A DNA stretch of 48,970 nucleotides from positions 1-48,970 of the forward strand of contig JAQTWD010000002.1 in assembly GCA_028689435.1 (NCBI GenBank). The letters run 5' to 3'. The notes beneath the pieces were generated by a model. That model had not been told where the DNA came from. It did not search any database and saw only the letters and a program-made list of their open reading frames with translations. Shown piece by piece: positions 5,530-46,187 of the stretch (its first letter is position 1; every line of letters begins with the position of its first letter). This DNA is from Minisyncoccota bacterium. GTDB lineage: Bacteria; Patescibacteriota; Minisyncoccia; Phycocordibacterales; UBA12079. The translations under genes and the position numbers were made by a program.

Positions 5530-5562
5530 GTCTTTGTTCTTTGATATTGGATAATTGTGCAA

Positions 5563-5702
5563 TCGTTCCTCGTTGCGCTGGCGCGCAAGTATAAAGTAGT
5601 AAGGTGTAAGTAGTAAGAAACGAAAAAATTTGCGAAGCAAATTTTTTACTTACTCCTTAATCCTTACACCTTGTTACTTGCTTCGAGCTTGGCGAGGAGC
5701 GA
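5563..5702 (+). repeat. hairpin insertion 1 in rnpB (P3 position)
   Basis: TCGTTCCTCG...CGAGGAGCGA closing stem. The interior is a long 'GTAAGTAGTAAG / CTTACTCCTTA' hairpin. Near-identical to insertion 2. Confidence 0.8.
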
Positions 5703-5726
5703 TTGTAAGGAAAGTCCGAACACTCG

Positions 5727-5868
5727 GTCGTTCCTCGTCGCGCTGGCGCGCAAGTATAAAGTAGTAAGGTGTAAGTAGTAAGAAACGAAAAAATTTGCTT
5801 CGCAAATTTTTTACTTACTCCTTAATCCTTTCTCCTTATTACTTGCTCCGAGCGTAGCGAGGAGCGAC
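5727..5868 (+). repeat. hairpin insertion 2 in rnpB (just 3' of the CR-I/P4 strand)
   Basis: GTCGTTCCTCG...CGAGGAGCGAC closing stem. Direct near-duplicate of 5563-5702. Confidence 0.8.
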
Positions 5869-6022
5869 AAGGGTAGCGGGTAACACCCGTCAAAAGTGAT
5901 TTTAGAGGTGCGAGCAGAGACGCTTAAAATTGAAAAATTTTAAGAACCCCTCGGGGTTAGTTTTTATGGAAACATAAAAAGTGAAACGGCTAAATCCTTA
6001 CCTGAGTGCAAGACCGTATCTA

Positions 6023-6235
6023 GTCGTTCCTCATTACATTCGGAACGAAATTTTTAATTTTTAATTTTTAATTTCTAAACAATGATTAAATTTAAAAATG
6101 TTTTAATTTTTAAACACAAAATTTGCTTTGGCAAATTTTGTCGTCCTGGTGTTTAAAAATTATTTCATTAAAAATTGTTTGAAAATTAAAAATTAAAAAT
6201 TAAAAATTTGAGGTCCGAGCGTAGCGAGGAGCGAC
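6023..6235 (+). repeat. hairpin insertion 3 in rnpB
   Basis: Same GTCGTTCCTC...CGAGGAGCGAC closing stem. The interior is built from AAATTAAAAATT-type words forming a long AT-rich hairpin. Confidence 0.75.
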
Positions 6236-6344
6236 TGGGGGAGTCGCTAGAGTTTGTTGGCAACAACAATCCCAGATAAATAATTATCGTCCGTCAATTG
6301 ACGGATACAGAATTCGGCTTATAGATATCAAAGAATAATTAAAT

Positions 6345-15628: not shown

Positions 15629-15718
15629 TTAATTATATAATTTAATGTAAGAAGGTAAATGTTGATAAGGAAAAGTTTTTGCTTACTACTTATTACTTAC
15701 TACTTACTACTTACTGAT

Positions 15719-15991
15719 ATGGCACATAAGAAAGCCGGCGGATCGGCAAAAAATCTAAAAGATTCAAATCCTAAATATTTAGGAACAAAACTTTATGACG
15801 GAGAAACTGCAAAAACAGGTTCTATTTTGGTTCGCCAAAGAGGAACAAAAATATTGGCAGGAAAAAATGTAGGGGTAGGAAAAGATCACACATTGTTTGC
15901 TCTTAAAGAAGGACAAGTAAAATTTACACCAAAGAGAAAAGAAAATTTTGACGGATCAAAAAACCAAAGAAAAGTTGTAAATGTTATATAA
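15719..15991 (+). CDS. rpmA: 50S ribosomal protein L27
   Basis: [12 protein letters not shown]...[11 protein letters not shown]...GKDHTLFA. The upstream ORF extension runs through a TACTTACTAC repeat. Confidence 0.9.
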
Positions 15992-16490: not shown

Positions 16491-16613
16491 AAATTTACTA
16501 AAATAAATACTAATCTACGAATTATACTAATAATACGAATGCGATACAAATATTAAAAATAATATACATTAGTAATTATTCGTATAATTTGCATCATTCG
16601 TATATTAGTATGT

Positions 16614-17831
16614 TTACCTCAATAGTTCTATTGCCTTATCCATTTGAGGATCCAAACCATCTTCAAATTGTTCTTGAGTAATCTCGACATTTACATCTGG
16701 CTCTAAACCATTATTTGAAATTGAATTTCCATTTGGAGTAAGCCATTTTGCCACTGTTATCTTTAAAGATGTATCAGGTGTCAAATTGATCAATTCTTGA
16801 ACAGAACCTTTTCCAAAAGTCTTCGTTCCTACAATTTTAGCAATTCCGTGTTCTTTTAATGCACCTGCTAATATTTCAGATGCAGAAGCTGAACCGCCAT
16901 TGACCAGTATAACAAATTTAAGATTGTTATTAAATATATTATATCCCTTACTTCTGTGTACTTTGTCTTCCTCATCAACACCGTAATCCTCGGTCACGAT
17001 TATTTTACCTGCTGGCAAAAACCAACTTGCCATATCTACGGCAGCCTCTAGGTATCCTCCTGGGTTTCCTCTTAGATCCAAAACCAATTTATTTGTTTTT
17101 GATTCTACAAATTCTCTCAAAGCATCTCTGAACAAATTGGGAGAAGTCGCAGAAAAATTATACAAACTGATTATAAAAACATCCCCCCTTTTTTCGGTGT
17201 CTATTGTTGGTATATTTATATTATCTCTGATAACTGAAATTTCTATCAAATCAGCAACACCCTCTCTGGAAATTGTCAGCTTAACTGCAGTTCCTTTTTC
17301 TCCTCTGATAAGTTTTACTGCTTGATCGGTACTAAAATTTGAGGTTATTTGTTCATCAATTTTTATAATCTTGTCCCCTGGTTTTATACCGGCTTTTTCA
17401 GCAGGAGTATTTTTTAAAGGAGAAACGACAGTAATAATTCCGTCTCTTATTCCTATCTCCATACCAACACCACTAAATGACCCTTGAATATCATCGTTAA
17501 ACATTTCGCTTTCAGCAGGTGGCATAAAAACTGTATAAGGGTCTTTATATGAAGAAGCCAACCCTTGGATAGCACCCCATACTTTGTCTTGATCTGTTAT
17601 ATCGTCAGGAGAAACATATTTCTCGTTCAAAATATTCCACGCTCTCCAAAAATCACTGAAATCGGCTTTTGTTGTGTTCAAAGTATCTTCTTTGTTAATA
17701 ACATTGTTTATGGCTTCTGCACCCTTTTTTTGATTTTTTCCAAAATAAAAACCTATTCCAAAAATCAAACTAATTAAAAAAATAGCTACAATAATCGGAA
17801 CAATTTTTTTCAATGATAAATTTTTACTCAT
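16614..17831 (-). CDS. ctpA: S41 family carboxy-terminal processing protease
   Basis: TM anchor, PDZ-like segment (GIKPGDKIIKID), then LRGNPGGYL and GGSASASEILAGAL catalytic motifs. Confidence 0.85.
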   Translation of the reverse strand: MSKNLSLKKIVPIIVAIFLISLIFGIGFYFGKNQKKGAEAINNVINKEDTLNTTKADFSDFWRAWNILNEKYVSPDDITDQDKVWGAIQGLASSYKDPYTVFMPPAESEMFNDDIQGSFSGVGMEIGIRDGIITVVSPLKNTPAEKAGIKPGDKIIKIDEQITSNFSTDQAVKLIRGEKGTAVKLTISREGVADLIEISVIRDNINIPTIDTEKRGDVFIISLYNFSATSPNLFRDALREFVESKTNKLVLDLRGNPGGYLEAAVDMASWFLPAGKIIVTEDYGVDEEDKVHRSKGYNIFNNNLKFVILVNGGSASASEILAGALKEHGIAKIVGTKTFGKGSVQELINLTPDTSLKITVAKWLTPNGNSISNNGLEPDVNVEITQEQFEDGLDPQMDKAIELLR

Positions 17832-25107: not shown

Positions 25108-25264
25108 AAAAACAAAGTCCGCCACTCGGCGGACTTTTTTATTATAAATTTAAAATGGATTGCTTCGTGCCTCGCAAAGACAGAGAGGTCAGCTTCGTCA
25201 ACACTGTTAGCTGTTGGTTGTCCGCTGTGAGCTTCGTCCTCGTCCGCGCTATCAGCTATAAGCT

Positions 25265-25309
25265 CTGCCTCTTTTCTAAAAGAAAAGCAACGACACGGCA
25301 GGCAGGTAT
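25265..25309. repeat. left arm of the 45-bp perfect inverted repeat bracketing rmuC
   Basis: CTGCCTCTTTTCTAAAAGAAAAGCAACGACACGGCAGGCAGGTAT is the exact reverse complement of 26683-26727. Similarity continues imperfectly for about 15 bp on each side. Confidence 0.9.
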
Positions 25310-25320
25310 CGGCTATTAGC

Positions 25321-25563
25321 TTATTTTTTATCATTCTTTCTCAAACATTTTTTGAAAAGCTTTCTCCCGTAACACTCTTCGTAAATCTTTTTTCTTTCCA
25401 ATTCTTTTATCCAAGAAAGTATCAATGCACACAACAAAAGTAACTGCCAACCGATGAATTCGTATTTGGTAAATATAAGGTAACTACCTGCAACAAAAAT
25501 CCCCCAGAAAAATCCTGGACAATAAAATAATTTTGAAAAAAATACTCTTATATGATTAGACAT
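25321..25563 (-). CDS. small two-TM membrane protein, hypothetical
   Basis: ORF directly downstream of rmuC on the same strand; hydrophobic. Confidence 0.35.
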   Translation of the reverse strand: MSNHIRVFFSKLFYCPGFFWGIFVAGSYLIFTKYEFIGWQLLLLCALILSWIKELERKKIYEECYGRKLFKKCLRKNDKK

Positions 25564-26625: not shown

Positions 26626-26682
26626 TGTTTCAATAATAACATTTTTAATTAAAAAGTGTATTTAAGAAATAGCTGATAGCCT

Positions 26683-26727
26683 ATACCTGCCTGCCGTGTC
26701 GTTGCTTTTCTTTTAGAAAAGAGGCAG
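26683..26727. repeat. right arm of the 45-bp perfect inverted repeat bracketing rmuC
   Basis: Exact reverse complement of 25265-25309. Confidence 0.9.
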
Positions 26728-26919
26728 GGCTGATAGCTGATAGTATTGACCAAGTTTACAGTTTACAACATGAACGACGTGAATTATTTCGCTCCTTGCA
26801 ATGACGAGCGATCGTCGTCTTGGCTATCAGCTATAAGCTATCGGCTATCAGCTTCGTTTCAGCTATTAGCTTCGTTTTTATTATCAGCTTCGTTTTTTAC
26901 TCTCATCTCTGTTTGTAGT

Positions 26920-31058: not shown

Positions 31059-31164
31059 GCATTCGCCTGAAGAAACCTCAGAGGCCTCGCTTCGCTCGGA
31101 TTCGAAGCTCCAATGCTTCTCATCCAACTGAGCCCTGCCTGCCGGCAAGCAGGTACCTCGACAT
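31059..31164 (-). pseudogene. scrambled tRNA-Phe-derived fragment carrying a 20-nt palindrome insertion
   Basis: The 21 nt CCAACTGAGC+TACCTCGACAT are contiguous in the real gene (30990-31010). Here they are split (31124-31133 and 31154-31164) by CCTGCCTGCCGGCAAGCAGG. An inverted copy of GCATTCGCCTGAAGA lies at 31059-31073. Confidence 0.6.
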
Positions 31165-36617: not shown

Positions 36618-36913
36618 TAATCCTCAACCCTTTCACCCCCCGAGCTTCAGCCCGGGGGATTTTTTTTATTTACCCGAGGCCTGCCTACCGGCAGGCAGGT
36701 CGGACCTCGGGTAAAACCTGAAAAAAGACCTTTTTTAATCAATTTTGATTTTGCTTTTCTTTTTGGTATTATAATAAGGACTTTTACAAACGGTTAAAAC
36801 AGCTCGCTTTCCATGAAAGTATTGTTGTTTTTGATATTTTATAAGATCTGATTTCATCTTGAAATTTTGAATTGCAATTTTTCATTTTGAGATTTTAATT
36901 TTTAATTTTTAAC

Positions 36914-41769: not shown

Positions 41770-41810
41770 AAAAACAAAAACCACCGAAAGGTGGTTTTTG
41801 TTTTGATTGT

Positions 41811-42045
41811 GCGGAAGTGGGAGGATTTGGTCACAAGTCACTAAGTTTTTTATTCGTTCTCCGCTACGCTTTGAACTCTAAAAAACTAAGTGCTCGCGAT
41901 CCCGACTCGCCAGTTTGAAAAGTTTTCTTAAAACTTTTCTCTGGCTTCGTCTTTCAAATCTCTCCTCTACAACAATAGCAACTAAAACAAAAACGATGCT
42001 TAGGCATCGTTTTTGTTTTAGTTGTGCGGAAGAGGAGGGATTCGA
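41811..42045 (-). pseudogene. two degenerate tRNA-Ser 3'-end remnants, each preceded by a hairpin
   Basis: GCGGAAGTGGGAGGATT at 41811-41827 is identical to 42241-42257. GCGGAAGAGGAGGGATTCGA at 42026-42045 is a diverged copy. No matching 5' acceptor strands were found. Confidence 0.55.
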
Positions 42046-42241
42046 CCTCCCAGTTCTAAGTAAAAATTTCGTTTCCGCTTTGTTCCAACTCATTTTTACT
42101 AAGAACTCGTAGGCTCGGCGCTCAAATTTTTTCTTCGCTACGCTACGAAAAAATATATTCGCTTTTGTTCGAACCTCCCCCTGTCTTTAGTCAAGACGAC
42201 AATATCCAAATACCAGAAATGGTATTTGGATATTGTCGTTG

Positions 42242-42328
42242 CGGAAGTGGGAGGATTCGAACCCCCGATGCGGTTTCCCGCATGTCGCTTTTCGAAAGCG
42301 ATGCCTTCAGCCACTCAGCCACACTTCC
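42242..42328 (-). tRNA. tRNA-Ser (CGA)
   Basis: GGAAGTGTGGCTGAGTGGCTGAAGGCATCGCTTTCGAAAAGCGACATGCGGGAAACCGCATCGGGGGTTCGAATCCTCCCACTTCCG. Long variable arm and anticodon loop TTCGAAA. Confidence 0.9.
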
Positions 42329-43518: not shown

Positions 43519-43997
43519 AAAATCTCTCCTCCTTCTTGTCGATGTTTTGTATTTAAAAAGACATTTTTTCTACAATATAAAATACCATACAAAAAACACT
43601 TCCGTCAATATAAGACTTCAAAATTTACCAAAATCTTGCTTCTGTAGATTTTGAAATAATACATACACAAAAACAAAAATCCTCTCAATTGAGAGGATTT
43701 TTGTTTTTGTGTAGGCTTGTGTCTAACAAGCCAATAAATTTTAATGTCTATTTTTTTCTGCCTGAAAAAATATAAACATATCGTACTGTTTCCATATAAA
43801 AGAATATAACATTTTTTAAAAAAAGAAATGTGTATAACCGAGGTAAACATACTAATATACGAATGACACTAATAATACGAATACTATACAAATGTTGTAA
43901 TTTCGTATTCGTATTGCATTAGTATAATTCGTATCATTTGTATATTGGTATGTCTATCTTAAAATTTAAAAAAATGTATGATATTAACATCATGATT

Positions 43998-44112
43998 CCC
44001 GTTAGAGATCGCGGACACTTGCGGGGAATATTTAACAAAAGAAATTTATTAGAATTAATTTAAATAGATAGTATGCGAGATTTAACAAAGTCCGCGTCCT
44101 ATCTCTAACGGG
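43998..44112 (+). mobile_element. TIR element copy C (115 bp) abutting the tsaD start codon
   Basis: CCCGTTAGAGAT (43998-44009) pairs with ATCTCTAACGGG (44101-44112). Inner helix CGCGGAC/GTCCGCG. Flanks are ATGATT (43992-43997) and ATGAAA (44113-44118). Confidence 0.7.
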
Positions 44113-45348
44113 ATGAAAATATTGGCAATTGAGACATCTTGCGACGAGACAGCAATCAGCATAATTGAAGCAAAAGGAGGACTTAAAAAACCTCAATTCA
44201 AAATCTTGGCTGACACAGTTATCTCTCAAATAAATATCCACAAAGAATATGGAGGTGTCTTCCCCGCTCTTGCAAAAAGAGAACACGTAAAGAACTTACT
44301 TCCGATATTAGGGGAAACTTTGAAGAAAGCGAAGATGCTATCATTTGAAAAAAATCACAAAACACAAATTACAAATTACAAACAAAACACAAAATACAAA
44401 ACACAAATTACAAAAATCAAAAAAATTTTAGAAAGAGAGGTTGAAATGGTTGAGCCTTTGTTAGATTTTTTAAAAAATAACAAAATACCAAAAATAGATG
44501 CAATCGCTGTGACACAGGGGCCAGGACTAGAGCCTGCTCTTTGGACAGGAATAAATTTTGCAAAGGCTTTGGCGTTGGCGTGGGACAAACCTTTTATTCC
44601 TGTTAATCATATGGAAGGACACCTCGTCGCTTCGCTCCTCAAGTTAAAAGTAACAAGTAGCAAGTATAAAGGAGTTGAGTTTCCTGCTCTTGGTTTATTG
44701 ATAAGCGGAGGTCATACAGAGTTAATAATGGTTAAAGATTGGATGGATTATAAATTGATCGGTCAAACCAGAGACGATGCTGTCGGAGAAGCTTATGACA
44801 AGGTAGCAAGAATGCTTGGCCTTCCCTACCCAGGTGGTCCTGAAATATCAAAACTCTCCGAAGAATTTTCTAAAAACTACTCACTACCCACTACTCACTA
44901 CCCACTACCCCGTCCAATGCTTCATACAAACGATTTTGATTTTTCTTTTTCCGGATTAAAAACGGCTGTTTTGTATACCGTTAAAAATATTAAAAACCAT
45001 GCCTACCGGCAGGCAGGAATGACACCCGAAATCAAAAAAGAAATTTGTGCAGAATTTGAAAATGCGGTTGTTGATGTTTTGCTTTTTAAAACGAAAAAGG
45101 CTGTTGCAAAAAATAATATAAAGACATTGATTTTGGGAGGTGGTGTAACCGCAAATAAAAAAATACGAAAAGAATTTAAAAAATTGGAAAAAGAATTAGG
45201 TATTGATGTTTTAGTACCAGATGCAAAACATTCTACCGACAATGCTGTGATGATAGGAATTGCAGGTTATTTTAGATATTTAGATAACAAGGTTCTACTA
45301 CCAAACAAAACAGCAAAGATCAGAGCAGAAGGAAATTTGGCATTATAA
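44113..45348 (+). CDS. tsaD: tRNA N6-adenosine threonylcarbamoyltransferase TsaD, with four in-frame low-complexity insertions
   Basis: IETSCDET, HMEGH, SGGHT, GLPYPGGP and FSFSGLKT motifs. 411 aa versus about 340 aa typical. Confidence 0.9.
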   Translation: MKILAIETSCDETAISIIEAKGGLKKPQFKILADTVISQINIHKEYGGVFPALAKREHVKNLLPILGETLKKAKMLSFEKNHKTQITNYKQNTKYKTQITKIKKILEREVEMVEPLLDFLKNNKIPKIDAIAVTQGPGLEPALWTGINFAKALALAWDKPFIPVNHMEGHLVASLLKLKVTSSKYKGVEFPALGLLISGGHTELIMVKDWMDYKLIGQTRDDAVGEAYDKVARMLGLPYPGGPEISKLSEEFSKNYSLPTTHYPLPRPMLHTNDFDFSFSGLKTAVLYTVKNIKNHAYRQAGMTPEIKKEICAEFENAVVDVLLFKTKKAVAKNNIKTLILGGGVTANKKIRKEFKKLEKELGIDVLVPDAKHSTDNAVMIGIAGYFRYLDNKVLLPNKTAKIRAEGNLAL

Positions 45349-45606: not shown

Positions 45607-45772
45607 GTTTTGTTTCCTTTTCTAGAATTATTAAAATAAACAAATACCTTCAACAAGATTACGCAAAATTTTCTTTTATGTCAATTAAATCTGAGACAAA
45701 TCTAAGTTTTTTAATATTTGTATCGCATTCGTATAATTCGCAAAATTCGTATATTTGTATGTCTATTTTTGC

Positions 45773-45800
45773 TTGACAAAAAATGACTGCTTGCTACAAT
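45773..45800 (+). promoter_or_regulatory. near-consensus promoter of a candidate small RNA
   Basis: TTGACA, 16-nt spacer, TACAAT. Confidence 0.55.
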
Positions 45801-45805
45801 ATGGG

Positions 45806-45931
45806 TGAGAGAGGAAGAAATAAAAACTAAACTTTCGCTCTCACCAGTCCTTTTCAGCTCATTTCGGATCCCAGTTGCTTAGCAACACAGGATCCACACA
45901 CATATAGCACCACTCACGTGGTGCTTTTTTT
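45806..45931 (+). ncRNA. candidate ~125-nt small RNA
   Basis: Bounded by the promoter above and the terminator AGCACCAC-TCAC-GTGGTGCT plus T7. Internal hairpins GTGAGAG(A)G...CGCTCTCAC and GGATCC...GTTGC-TTA-GCAAC...GGATCC. No ORF. Not recognisable as SRP, 6S or tmRNA. Confidence 0.45.
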
Positions 45932-46187
45932 ATTGCATTATTATATATTTTAAAAATCTCATACCATCATTTTGCAAAATGACGGTATGAGATTTTTGTA
46001 CAAAAAGTTATTTAACAACTTCTACCTCAATAGCCACTACACCAAAACTTTTTTCATCTTTTGGTTTTGTAATTTGTTTTTTGTGATTTGTTTGGAATTT
46101 GTGTTTTGTGATTTTTGTTTGTATTTTTATCAGCCGTTAATATTTCTGCTTTTCTGAGAACAATTATTAATACAGGAAGCAAATTTT

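What the first reader, a model, noticed from the sequence alone, without database searches (positions are those of the whole stretch)
44340..45020. tsaD contains four in-frame insertions made of the genome's intergenic repeat 'words'
Compared from memory with E. coli TsaD, the conserved blocks are intact but four extra segments interrupt them:
1. **44353-44417** (AATCACAAAACACAAATTACAAATTACAAACAAAACACAAAATACAAAACACAAATTACAAAAATC, giving KNHKTQITNYKQNTKYKTQITKIK). Its reverse-complement relative lies in intergenic DNA at 46061-46130, sharing AAAATCACAAAACACAAATT.
2. **44641-44673** (AAGTTAAAAGTAACAAGTAGCAAGTATAAAGGA, giving KLKVTSSKYKG). This matches the CAAGTATAAAGTAGTAAGGTGTAAGTAGTAAG word of the rnpB insertions.
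3. **44877-44909** (CTACTCACTACCCACTACTCACTACCCACTACC, giving NYSLPTTHYPLP).
4. **45002-45017** (CCTACCGGCAGGCAGG, giving AYRQAG). This is the 20-nt palindrome family seen at 31134-31153 and 36676-36695.

All four preserve the reading frame. **Inference:** repeat elements insert into coding DNA and survive when they land in-frame in surface loops, which would make them a source of protein length variation.
Basis: partly seen in the sequence, partly recalled or inferred. Interest (0 to 1): 0.75.

Follow-up and report, generated by a model that had tools for sequence, protein, structure and literature searches.

The report
Genomic repeats translated inside tsaD
An essential tRNA-modification gene of an ultra-small (Campbellbacteria) bacterium carries, in four flexible loops, translated copies of the genome's own repeats: three runs of 7-base tandem repeats and a 20-base palindrome that turns out to be scattered across many bacterial phyla and phages.

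Summary
tsaD (44113-45348, 411 aa) is an intact gene under purifying selection (dN/dS 0.05-0.11). Its four extra segments are exactly the four hypervariable spots among 32 orthologues, and they fall in low-confidence loops of an AlphaFold model.

Three segments are imperfect heptanucleotide tandem arrays. This is the window's dominant repeat class: 19 arrays at lag 7, against 0-2 at other lags. Site 1 has a real intergenic relative (53/67, with an exact 20-mer). Sites 2 and 3 match intergenic and rnpB arrays only at the level of unit family.

The fourth segment is a 20-nt palindrome, 19/20 identical to an intergenic copy. It is a clean 21-nt presence/absence difference between close relatives. 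The intergenic copy is an exact 20-nt indel.

Orthologues carry further copies, some nested. They also carry different array families at the same loops, and one carries a complete hairpin module.

Unexpectedly, CCTGCCTRCCGGYAGGCAGG occurs in at least 120 genome stretches from many phyla and in 48 viral stretches (composition-matched control: 2). It also lies in frame in ribosomal protein S6 and FtsK of other CPR bacteria.

In-frame repeat insertion is a known kind of event (Rickettsia RPEs; cyanobacterial STRR/SDR). This form is a new variant. The mechanism that moves the palindrome is unknown.

The parts
44113..45348 (+). tsaD coding sequence (411 aa), intact and functional
   Evidence: ORF. 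Pfam TsaD 1.8e-82. AF2 model matches E. coli YgjD at TM 0.89. Core dN/dS is 0.05-0.11 against 6 relatives.
44348..44424 (+). Site 1: heptamer array (AAAACAC/AAATTAC units), aa ~79-104, KNHKTQITNYKQNTKYKTQITKIKK
   Evidence: TRF period 7/14/25/32. Matches 46050-46116(-) at 53/67, 0/100 shuffles. Exact 20-mer shared. pLDDT <50 at residues 82-90. Different unit families occupy this site in orthologues.
44620..44642 (+). 23-nt GC-rich (61%) stretch, CACCTCGTCGCTTCGCTCCTCAA, encoding HLVASLL(K). It is invariant at the nucleotide level in 7 orthologues and sits directly 5' of the site-2 array. It resembles the GC-rich 'heads' of the rnpB repeat modules.
   Evidence: Longest invariant run in the gene; the next longest is 13 nt. 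CCTCGTCGC is exact only here and at 5733. Head plus array matches 5731-5786 at 35/56. No RNA-fold signal. The cause is unexplained.
44640..44673 (+). Site 2: heptamer array AAGTNNN x5, aa 177-187 (KLKVTSSKYKG)
   Evidence: TRF. Family pattern gives 18 hits against 0.56 expected. P0009 lacks exactly 21 nt, which is 3 units. Stop-free only in the frame used. pLDDT <50 at residues 178-185.
44876..44910 (+). Site 3: heptamer array ACTACYC x5, aa 255-266 (YSLPTTHYPLP)
   Evidence: TRF 100% at period 14. Family pattern gives 9 hits against 0 expected. Closest relatives have AAAACTA units of the same length in the same register. P0024 has ACTACCA units plus a hairpin module here.
44997..45017 (+). 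Site 4: 21-nt indel holding the palindrome CATGCCTACCGGCAGGCAGG (44998-45017), aa 295-302 (N)HAYRQAG
   Evidence: 19/20 identical to 36680-36699. Present in the window, P0002 and P0008; absent in P0003/4/5/9/20/24. The 10-residue block 291-300 has mean pLDDT 64.
46050..46127 (-). Intergenic heptamer array, the reverse-complement relative of site 1, lying 3' of the cysteine desulfurase gene
   Evidence: Inverted repeats I2 and I7. TRF..
36680..36699 (.). Intergenic copy of the 20-nt palindrome, CCTGCCTACCGGCAGGCAGG, inserted in the loop of the hairpin ACCCGAGG...CCTCGGGT
   Evidence: Exact 20-nt indel against L001 and L003.
31134..31153 (.). Second intergenic copy of the palindrome, CCTGCCTGCCGGCAAGCAGG
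5563..5867 (+). Two 165-nt hairpin modules inside rnpB. Their arms are AAGTAGT/ACTTACT heptamer arrays, the same unit family as tsaD sites 2 and 3.
   Evidence: Repeat family D1 and inverted repeats I4, I5. TRF. rnpB identified by a partial Rfam hit plus the CR-I and CR-V motifs..
15675..15719 (+). CTTACTA heptamer array, the closest relative of the site-3 family outside rnpB

Best explanation
**What is there**

Two classes of the genome's repetitive DNA sit in four structurally tolerant loops of a working TsaD enzyme and are translated as low-complexity peptide.

**Class 1: three heptanucleotide tandem arrays (sites 1-3)**
- They belong to the unit families that fill this genome's intergenic spacers and extend helices of its RNase P RNA.
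- They have been resident at these loops throughout the Campbellbacteria-like lineage.
- They turn over quickly, through gain and loss of units and through replacement by other array families. Replication slippage, unequal exchange, and conversion or recombination with other arrays are the likely routes.
- Selection passes only net changes that are multiples of 3 (for example 21 nt, which is 3 units) and only unit variants without in-frame stop codons.

**Class 2: a 20-nt GC-rich palindrome (site 4)**
- CCTGCCTRCCGGYAGGCAGG behaves as a discrete insertion unit with no target-site duplication.
- In non-coding DNA it is exactly 20 nt.
- In genes only copies made frame-neutral persist: 20+1, 20-2, or nested to 36 nt.

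**Shown and inferred**
- Shown: repeat identity, 7-nt periodicity, indel boundaries, hypervariability, loop location in the model, and purifying selection on the rest of the gene.
- Inferred: translation of the segments, the slippage and conversion mechanisms, and whatever enzyme moves the palindrome.
For: **Heptamer arrays**
- Heptamer periodicity is specific: 19 arrays at lag 7, against 0-2 at lags 4-12, with a null of ~0.05.
- A 7-nt period cannot arise from selection at the protein level.
- Site 1 matches an intergenic array at 53/67 and shares an exact 20-mer with it.
- Sites 2 and 3 are members of array families.

**Variability and structure**
- The four sites are the only hypervariable blocks in 32 orthologues.
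- They are also the low-confidence, non-core parts of the AF2 model.

**Nucleotide alignments**
- A 21-nt deletion of 3 units in P0009.
- Concerted unit replacement at constant length at site 3.
- The same unit families at different sites in different lineages.
- A full hairpin module at site 3 of P0024.
- L001 and L003 are 95% identical, yet differ in their site-1 array and in the site-4 palindrome.

**Palindrome**
- The intergenic indel is 20 nt; coding copies are 21, 21 and 36 nt, and net +18 nt in a Daviesbacteria S6.

**Selection**
- Core dN/dS is 0.05-0.11.
- Site 2 is stop-free only in the frame used, whereas the rnpB array of the same family is closed in all sense frames.

**Literature**
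- Heptameric repeats are the commonest long simple-sequence repeats in bacteria, and polymerase slippage has been proposed as the cause (PMC4679880, PMC4692102).
Against: - There is no direct evidence of translation.
- In about 110 kb examined, tsaD is the only gene with in-CDS arrays. The arrays could therefore be one old peculiarity of this gene rather than the product of an ongoing process.
- Sites 2 and 3 have no close pairwise relative elsewhere in the window.
- The 23-nt nucleotide-invariant GC-rich stretch next to site 2 is not explained by this model.
- No enzyme or mechanism for palindrome insertion was identified.
- Solvent exposure of the loops was not computed.
Confidence: 0.7

Rival explanations
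1. In-situ origin only. The arrays arose where they sit, by polymerase slippage on chance 7-nt duplications in loop-coding DNA. Their resemblance to intergenic arrays reflects a shared mutational bias towards a few favoured heptamers, not movement or exchange of DNA. This rival concerns sites 1-3 only.
For: - Arrays occupy the same three loops in all relatives, and no other gene has them.
- Change happens unit by unit, and there is one 21-nt deletion.
- The pairwise similarity of sites 2 and 3 to other arrays is no better than shuffles.
- Slippage is the explanation offered in the literature for heptameric repeats (PMC4679880, PMC4692102).
Against: - Site 1 shares an exact 20-mer and 53/67 identity, with the same order of unit variants, with an array 1.6 kb away in the opposite orientation. 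Shuffling the order of units never reaches this (0/100).
- The same families appear at different loops in different lineages, and P0024 carries a composite array-hairpin-array module.
- Genomes that are 95% identical carry unrelated arrays at site 1.
Confidence: 0.2
2. Ordinary lineage-specific low-complexity loops. The segments are simply fast-evolving Lys/Asn/Thr-rich linker sequence in an AT-rich genome, with no real relation to the intergenic repeats.
For: - The loops at these positions vary in length in TsaD/Kae1 generally.
- Composition bias alone gives weak matches (sites 2 and 3).
Against: - The strict 7-nt DNA periodicity is out of phase with codons.
- There is an exact 20-mer shared with an intergenic array and a 19/20 palindrome match.
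- There are clean indels of a defined element.
- A GC-rich palindrome is the opposite of the AT composition bias.
Confidence: 0.03
3. The segments are not translated. They would be removed or bypassed, like introns, inteins or the mitochondrial translational-bypass elements of Magnusiomyces, so the mature protein lacks them.
For: - The same palindrome and arrays also sit inside RNA genes and pseudo-tRNA fragments. That would be harmless if they were excised.
Against: - All four segments are in frame and free of stop codons.
- The element is 20 nt in non-coding DNA but net 18, 21 or 36 nt in genes. Such frame correction would be unnecessary if the segment were removed.
- In site 2, stop triplets occur only out of frame.
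- No ribozyme or intron family was found.
Confidence: 0.03
4. The loops are adaptive. Lys-rich, variable loops are kept because they help tRNA binding or partner contacts, or are under diversifying selection; the repeats merely supply the raw material. This is not exclusive of the best explanation.
For: - Arrays have persisted at the same loops across a lineage with dS >1.
- The peptides are strongly basic, and the enzyme's substrate is tRNA (read from the sequence).
Against: - The peptide sequence is not conserved: KTQITNYK, KLKILNYK and FQFPISK all occur at the same site.
- Site 3 changes from basic to Pro/Tyr/Thr-rich.
- P0074 and P0104 do without most of the extra residues.
Confidence: 0.1

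Closest known systems
Rickettsia palindromic elements (RPE; Ogata et al. 2000, as summarised in PMC10969869)
   Same: Repeat elements are inserted in frame into unrelated housekeeping genes, at positions compatible with the protein fold. They are translated and also occur in non-coding DNA. The host is a reduced genome.
   Different: RPEs are ~100-150 bp and form defined families that each encode a conserved peptide. They are restricted to Rickettsia. Here the inserts are 20-nt palindromes and 7-nt tandem arrays with no conserved peptide.
Cyanobacterial STRR heptanucleotide repeats, including those inside rnpB (Mazel 1990; Vioque 1997, citation seen; content from my own knowledge)
   Same: Tandem 7-nt units come in several families, are mostly intergenic, vary between strains, and extend helices of RNase P RNA. 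This window's rnpB has the same kind of insertions.
   Different: The unit sequences differ (AT-rich here), and so does the phylum (CPR). I know of no report of STRR arrays read in frame inside a universal enzyme.
Heptameric long simple-sequence repeats in bacteria (Mrazek 2007, via PMC4679880; TAACTGA repeats, PMC4679880; GGGAATC repeats, PMC4692102)
   Same: A 7-nt unit is the preferred period, the arrays lie between genes, they vary in length and sequence between close relatives, and slippage has been proposed as the cause.
   Different: Those repeats are reported as under-represented in coding DNA, and each has one dominant unit per genome. Here several unit families coexist and three arrays sit in one essential gene.
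Small dispersed repeats (SDR, 21-27 nt) of Nostoc (Elhai et al. 2008; citation seen, paper not readable here; content from my own knowledge)
   Same: Very small elements (~20 nt) capable of forming hairpins, with precise presence/absence between relatives and nested self-insertion.
   Different: The sequence is unrelated as far as I can tell. SDRs are confined to cyanobacteria, whereas this palindrome occurs in many phyla and in phages.
Mobile GC clusters of yeast mitochondrial DNA and hairpin elements of sponge mitochondria (PMC8811140, PMC2800124; search results only, neither paper was read; details from my own knowledge)
   Same: GC-rich palindromic mini-elements in AT-rich genomes that are optional between strains. 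In yeast, some lie in frame in a protein gene (var1).
   Different: They are organellar, 30-60 nt long and have a target-site duplication at AG. They show no cross-phylum identity.
REP/REPIN elements mobilised by RAYT transposases (PMC3116915)
   Same: Short palindromes that form hairpins, occur in many copies and lack a target-site duplication.
   Different: REPs are extragenic and specific to a species, carry a 5' GTAG and come with a RAYT gene. None of these was found here.

Membership tests
TsaD/Kae1/Qri7 (tRNA t6A37 threonylcarbamoyltransferase) | Pfam PF00814 match above the curated cut-off, with the ASKHA fold | tested here: met
   277.5 bits against a cut-off of 24.8. The AF2 model matches E. 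coli YgjD at TM 0.89 and Aquifex TsaD at TM 0.90.
TsaD/Kae1/Qri7 (tRNA t6A37 threonylcarbamoyltransferase) | Metal-binding HxxxH motif and conserved GGGV..N / DN motifs intact; gene under purifying selection | tested here: met
   HMEGH at aa 166-170, GGGVTAN at 342-348 and STDNA at 374-378 are invariant in 32 orthologues. dN/dS is 0.05-0.11.
Heptanucleotide tandem repeats (STRR-like long SSRs) | Head-to-tail copies of a 7-nt unit, at least 3 units, in excess over other periods | tested here: met
   TRF arrays at sites 1-3. 19 arrays at lag 7, against 0-2 at other lags, with a null of 0.05.
Heptanucleotide tandem repeats (STRR-like long SSRs) | Sequence identity with the named cyanobacterial STRR units (CCCCAGT, TTGGTCA, CAACAGT; from my own knowledge) | tested here: not met
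   The units here are AAAACAC, AAGTANN, ACTACYC, GCTATCA and AAATTAA. The class is the same; the family is not.
Rickettsia palindromic elements | An element of ~100-150 bp that encodes a conserved peptide and belongs to an RPE family | tested here: not met
   The inserts are 21-77 nt and no peptide is conserved between orthologues. They work like RPEs but are not members.
MITE | Terminal inverted repeats flanked by a target-site duplication, 50-500 bp | tested here: not met
   The palindrome is 20 nt. The empty and filled sites show no duplication.
REP/RAYT | Extragenic palindrome with a 5' GTAG/GGAG tetranucleotide and an associated RAYT (Y1 transposase) gene | tested here: inconclusive
   There is no 5' GTAG, and many copies are intragenic. 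The presence of a RAYT gene in these genomes was not tested.
Small dispersed repeats (Elhai 2008) | Dispersed element of 21-27 nt, precise presence/absence between relatives, nesting within copies of itself | tested here: met
   Exact 20-nt indel. Nested copies lie after position 9 or 11 in several genomes and in P0009. The size is 1 nt below the published range. Sequence relatedness to SDR1-8 cannot be tested here because the paper is not held.

The most novel reading that the evidence does not exclude
The 20-nt palindrome CCTGCCTRCCGGYAGGCAGG may be a previously undescribed, pan-bacterial, ultra-small mobile element.
- It is found with identical sequence in CPR phyla, Bacteroidota (including cultured isolates), Planctomycetes, Omnitrophota, Nitrospirae, Proteobacteria and phages.
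- It inserts without a target-site duplication, at purine^pyrimidine steps.
- It shows a preference for hairpin loops and for its own centre.
- It becomes fixed in frame in essential proteins (TsaD, S6, FtsK).

If so, an unknown, widely shared or horizontally travelling machinery writes the same 20 bases into genomes.
Probability: 0.35. Interest if true: 0.85.

Novelty: new variant of a known kind. Interest (0 to 1): 0.62.

Why it matters
- **A new setting for a known process.** In a streamlined CPR genome, the repeats usually thought of as intergenic filler also lengthen and diversify an essential, universally conserved enzyme. They do this within genomes that are 95% identical. This is a concrete route to the oversized, insertion-rich proteins and RNAs typical of CPR bacteria.
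- **A natural experiment on selection.** The contrast between 20 nt outside genes and 18, 21 or 36 nt inside them shows how selection filters mobile DNA in coding sequence.
- **Practical consequences.** Such segments break profile searches: rnpB here falls below Rfam's threshold. They also inflate apparent protein divergence.
- **A possible wider phenomenon.** The same 20-nt palindrome is present across phyla and in phages. If this reflects mobility, it points to an unrecognised and very small class of mobile DNA.

Tried and rejected
- **Rfam.** At gathering thresholds it finds only tRNAs. No family covers the palindrome or the arrays. The putative small RNA at ~45780-45935 has no family.
- **RNA folding.** Folding of the site-2 region, including its invariant head, gives no signal (z -0.05). 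The palindrome in the mRNA is only a modest hairpin (-8.5 kcal/mol, z -1.5). I therefore dropped the idea of a conserved mRNA structure.
- **Pairing of sites 2 and 3.** I considered that the two sites pair as arms of one long mRNA hairpin, as in the rnpB modules. I rejected this by reading the units: only 3-4 of 7 positions are complementary, and the relatives' site-3 units (AAAACTA) are not complementary at all.
- **Heptamer arrays beside the palindrome in other phyla.** The enrichment is weak (lag-7 self-similarity 0.294 against 0.265), so the association is not general.
- **Hairpin loops as the palindrome's target.** They are enriched (flanking stems of at least 6 bp: 8.8% against 1.6%) but account for a minority of sites.
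- **Palindromes in tRNA genes.** The cases I looked at are truncated or unusual tRNA fragments lying next to intact genes. They do not show that the element is tolerated in a working tRNA.
- **Adaptor or assembly artefact.** I rejected this. The flanks are contiguous, the copy lies in frame in three independent assemblies with point differences, and the element is present in isolate genomes.
- **Literature.** No paper in the library contains the palindrome or its peptides. None links heptamer repeats with CPR bacteria. Elhai 2008 and Vioque 1997 could not be read.
Full report
**1. What is at the locus**

- The ORF 44113-45348 (+) encodes a 411-aa TsaD.
- The best database relatives are Candidatus Campbellbacteria (Parcubacteria, CPR). 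The closest is 87% identical.
- Aligned to solved TsaD structures, the protein has extra residues at these places:
  - aa 22-28;
  - aa 76-124;
  - aa ~177-184;
  - aa ~255-261;
  - aa ~296-305.
- An AlphaFold model built on 32 orthologues has mean pLDDT 86. It superposes on E. coli YgjD at TM 0.89.
- Outside the four variable sites, dN/dS against six relatives is 0.05-0.11, with dS of 0.4 to more than 1.6. The gene is functional, not a pseudogene.

**2. The four segments are DNA repeats, in two classes**

Tandem Repeats Finder reports imperfect 7-nt arrays at 44352-44415 (AAAACAC), 44640-44666 (CAAGTAA) and 44876-44910 (ACTACCC).

Period 7 is the signature of this genome:
- With a fixed criterion there are 19 arrays at lag 7, against 0-2 at every other lag from 4 to 12. 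Markov-shuffled sequence gives ~0.05.
- About 14 array loci are intergenic or lie within rnpB.
- The only convincing gene that carries arrays is tsaD, which has three.
- The same holds for three relatives' loci.

The fourth segment is a GC-rich palindrome, CATGCCTACCGGCAGGCAGG (44998-45017). It is 19/20 identical to the intergenic copy at 36680-36699 and related to the one at 31134-31153.

**3. How good are the claimed similarities?**

| Segment | Best relative | Result |
|---|---|---|
| Site 1 | 46050-46116(-) | 53/67; not reached in 100 mononucleotide shuffles or 100 unit-order shuffles. Exact 20-mer at 44351(+) and 46096(-). |
| Site 2 core | rnpB word | 23/33; 17/100 shuffles do as well, so not a close copy. 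|
| Site 2 as a family | AAGTAGN arrays | 18 pattern hits at five loci, against 0.56 expected. |
| Site 3 as a family | ACTACNN arrays (complement orientation of the same family) | 9 hits against 0 expected, including the rnpB arms and 15685-15719. |

Sites 1 and 4 therefore have true sequence relatives. Sites 2 and 3 share a unit family only.

**4. Orthologues**

In a 32-sequence alignment the only hypervariable blocks are aa 77-104, 178-189, 252-264 and 296-302. These are exactly the four segments.

The other two extras relative to E. coli (GGLKKPQ and the ILERE...KIPK helices) are conserved in the lineage and are not repeats.

At the DNA level:

- **Site 4**
  - It is a clean 21-nt indel.
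  - It is present in the window, P0002 and P0008, and absent in P0003, P0004, P0005, P0009, P0020 and P0024.
  - L001 (P0004) and L003 (P0002) are 95% identical over 12.8 kb, yet only L003 has the palindrome.
- **Other palindrome copies**
  - P0003 carries a 21-nt copy (CCTGCCTACCGG-A-CAGGCAGG) inserted inside a window-like site-1 array.
  - P0009 carries a 36-nt nested palindrome in site 3.
- **Site 1** holds a different unit family in each orthologue:
  - AAATTAC (window);
  - AAATTAA (P0002);
  - CAATTTC (P0004);
  - TAATTTC (P0005 and P0009);
  - TTCACAG (P0008).
- **Site 2:** P0009 lacks exactly 21 nt, which is three units.
- **Site 3:** the array has the same length and register in the window and its closest relatives. 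The three variable positions of every unit differ in concert (CTC/CCC against AAA).
- **Families move between loops**
  - AAAACAC is at site 1 here but at site 2 in P0020.
  - AATTTCT is at site 1 in P0005 and P0009 and at site 2 in P0020.
  - AAATTAT is at site 1 in P0002 and at site 2 in P0024.
- **A whole module:** P0024 has, at site 3, a CGCAGAA array, the perfect hairpin CGAATTTTTGCCAAAGGCAAAAATTCG and an ACTACCA array. This is the architecture of the rnpB insertions.

**5. Frame filtering**

- The intergenic palindrome at 36680 is an exact 20-nt indel against both relatives. It sits in the loop of a pre-existing hairpin and has no target duplication.
- Inside genes, the copies have net lengths that are multiples of three:
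  - 21 nt, from an extra A after CC (window);
  - 21 nt, from an extra central A (P0003);
  - 21 nt, as a perfect 20-mer plus one flanking base (P0008);
  - 36 nt, nested (P0009).
- In a Daviesbacteria ribosomal protein S6 the net change is +18 nt. The host protein is 99 aa; the four closest of the twelve aligned orthologues, all of which lack the insert, are 93 aa.
- Frame was thus restored in several different ways. This is what selection acting on a 20-nt insertion would produce.
- The site-2 array is stop-free only in the frame used. Its TAA and TAG triplets fall out of frame.
- The rnpB array of the same family is closed in all sense frames, and most intergenic arrays are closed in most frames.

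**6. Structure**

- pLDDT is below 50 at residues 82-90 and 178-185. It dips to about 72 and 64 in the 10-residue blocks that contain sites 3 and 4.
- Sites 2-4 are coil between regular elements. Site 1 is weakly predicted helix.
- This supports tolerant loops. I did not compute solvent exposure or distance to the TsaB/TsaE interfaces.

**7. rnpB context**

- RNase P RNA spans about 5530-6335. This is roughly twice the usual length, and it scores only 51.5 bits against Rfam's threshold of 100.
- The CR-I motif (AAGGAAAGTCCGA, 5707) and the CR-V motif (ACAGAATTCGGCTTAT, ~6310) are present.
- Three long hairpin modules interrupt it. Each is bounded by TCGTTCCTCG...CGAGGAGCGA and has heptamer arms.
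- This parallels the STRR insertions in cyanobacterial rnpB (Vioque 1997; citation seen, content from my own knowledge).

**8. An unexplained detail**

- The 23 nt directly upstream of the site-2 array is CACCTCGTCGCTTCGCTCCTCAA (44620-44642; 61% GC in a 34% GC genome).
- It is identical in all seven genes, although synonymous divergence is saturated in two of them. It is the longest invariant run in the gene; the next is 13 nt.
- It shares CCTCGTCGC, and the spacing from that motif to the first AAGT unit, with the rnpB module head.
- Folding gives no signal.

**9. The palindrome beyond this lineage**

They come from:
  - many CPR phyla;
  - Bacteroidota, including cultured Winogradskyella, Flagellimonas and Olivibacter;
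  - Omnitrophota, Planctomycetes, Nitrospirae, Chloroflexi, Ignavibacteria, Proteobacteria and Bdellovibrionales.
- By my own estimate, chance would give about 2-4 hits in the genome collection.
- IMG/VR viral contigs give 48 stretches, against 2 for a composition-matched control palindrome.
- The variant counts in the genome loci are G8/C13 80, G8/T13 25, A8/C13 21 and A8/T13 1.
- Copies are nested in one another after position 9 or 11.
- T is almost absent at position -1, and purines are almost absent at +1.
- Flanking hairpin stems of at least 6 bp occur at 8.8% of sites, against 1.6% of control positions.
- 55 of 184 copies lie deep inside long ORFs, where ORF coverage is 86%. Two of these lie in variable loops of an FtsK motor domain and of S6.
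- No paper in the library contains the sequence or its peptides.

**10. Interpretation**

- The best-supported account is translated repeat DNA in tolerant loops, in two classes:
  - resident heptamer arrays that turn over fast, through slippage, unequal exchange or conversion;
  - a discrete 20-nt palindromic element that comes and goes.
- Selection acts as a filter on frame and stop codons.
- The main rival, for the arrays only, is purely in-situ slippage with convergent units. It is weakened by three observations:
  - the exact 20-mer and conserved order of unit variants shared with an inverted array 1.6 kb away;
  - the mosaic distribution of families over sites and lineages;
  - the composite module in P0024.

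**11. Comparison with what is known**

- In-frame repeat insertion into housekeeping genes is known from the Rickettsia RPEs (PMC10969869).
- Heptameric arrays are the commonest long simple repeats in bacteria. They are usually reported as intergenic (PMC4679880, PMC4692102).
- Heptamer insertions in rnpB, and nested elements of about 20 nt, are known from cyanobacteria (Vioque 1997; Elhai 2008).
- The new features here are:
  - the combination in a CPR bacterium;
  - three 7-nt arrays read through in one universal enzyme, with whole-family replacement between near-identical genomes;
  - the cross-phylum identity of the palindrome.
- I rate it a new variant of a known kind. The pan-bacterial palindrome is the part most likely to be truly new.

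Noticed in passing
window 5530-6335 (+): The RNase P RNA gene is about twice the normal length, because three long hairpin modules with heptamer-repeat arms are inserted in it. It scores only 51.5 bits against Rfam's gathering score of 100, so standard annotation would miss it.
   Followed up: partly
window 43997-44113: A 117-nt MITE-like element has perfect 13-nt terminal inverted repeats, TCCCGTTAGAGAT / ATCTCTAACGGGA. It ends on the A of the tsaD start codon. It lies within a 152-nt stretch that is absent from both relatives at this position. An 86%-identical copy lies at L003 19160-19289, next to the ribosomal protein L21 gene.
   Followed up: partly
window 44620-44642: This 23-nt GC-rich stretch is identical in seven tsaD genes despite saturated synonymous divergence. 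It resembles the GC-rich heads that precede heptamer arrays in rnpB. No RNA structure signal was found, and the cause is unknown.
   Followed up: partly
window 41794-42257: Three tandem copies, 215 nt apart, of a unit that ends in the 3' part of tRNA-Ser(CGA) (gene at 42241-42328, minus strand). Two of the units (182-nt and 215-nt indels) are absent from L001 and L003. They may be leftovers of repeated integration at the tRNA gene.
   Followed up: no
window 45772-45934: This intergenic stretch has a TTGACA...TACAAT promoter-like site, two hairpins and a terminator-like end. It is 92% identical to L001, which is more conserved than the neighbouring genes. It is a possible small RNA, but it has no Rfam family.
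   Followed up: partly
window 25249-25339 and 26653-26743: A 91-nt inverted repeat (87% complementary) brackets two genes. Each arm is a GCTATCA heptamer array interrupted by a split palindrome, CTGCCT...GGCAGGCAGG, that holds an inner hairpin. A similar composite sits at L001 7001-7066.
   Followed up: no
window 46009-46187 versus L001 11984-12343: The ASCH-domain gene present in L001 and L007 is missing here. Only its last ~50 nt remain (46009-46060), followed by the heptamer array that is the relative of tsaD site 1.
   Followed up: no
L029 4020-4225 (Patescibacteria MAG): The 5' part of a tRNA carries the 20-nt palindrome in its D-arm. It is followed by a complete tRNA-Met and then by what looks like the 3' part of the first tRNA. 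This may be a split or intron-bearing tRNA. L052 and L060 show palindromes at the same D-arm position (TAGA^), in tRNA fragments or interrupted tRNAs.
   Followed up: partly
window 16500-16620, 43840-43960 and 45708-45767: A family of ~60-120-nt AT-rich intergenic repeats (ATTCGTATAATTCG...TATGTCTA), in both orientations. One copy is just upstream of tsaD and another is upstream of the putative small RNA.
   Followed up: no
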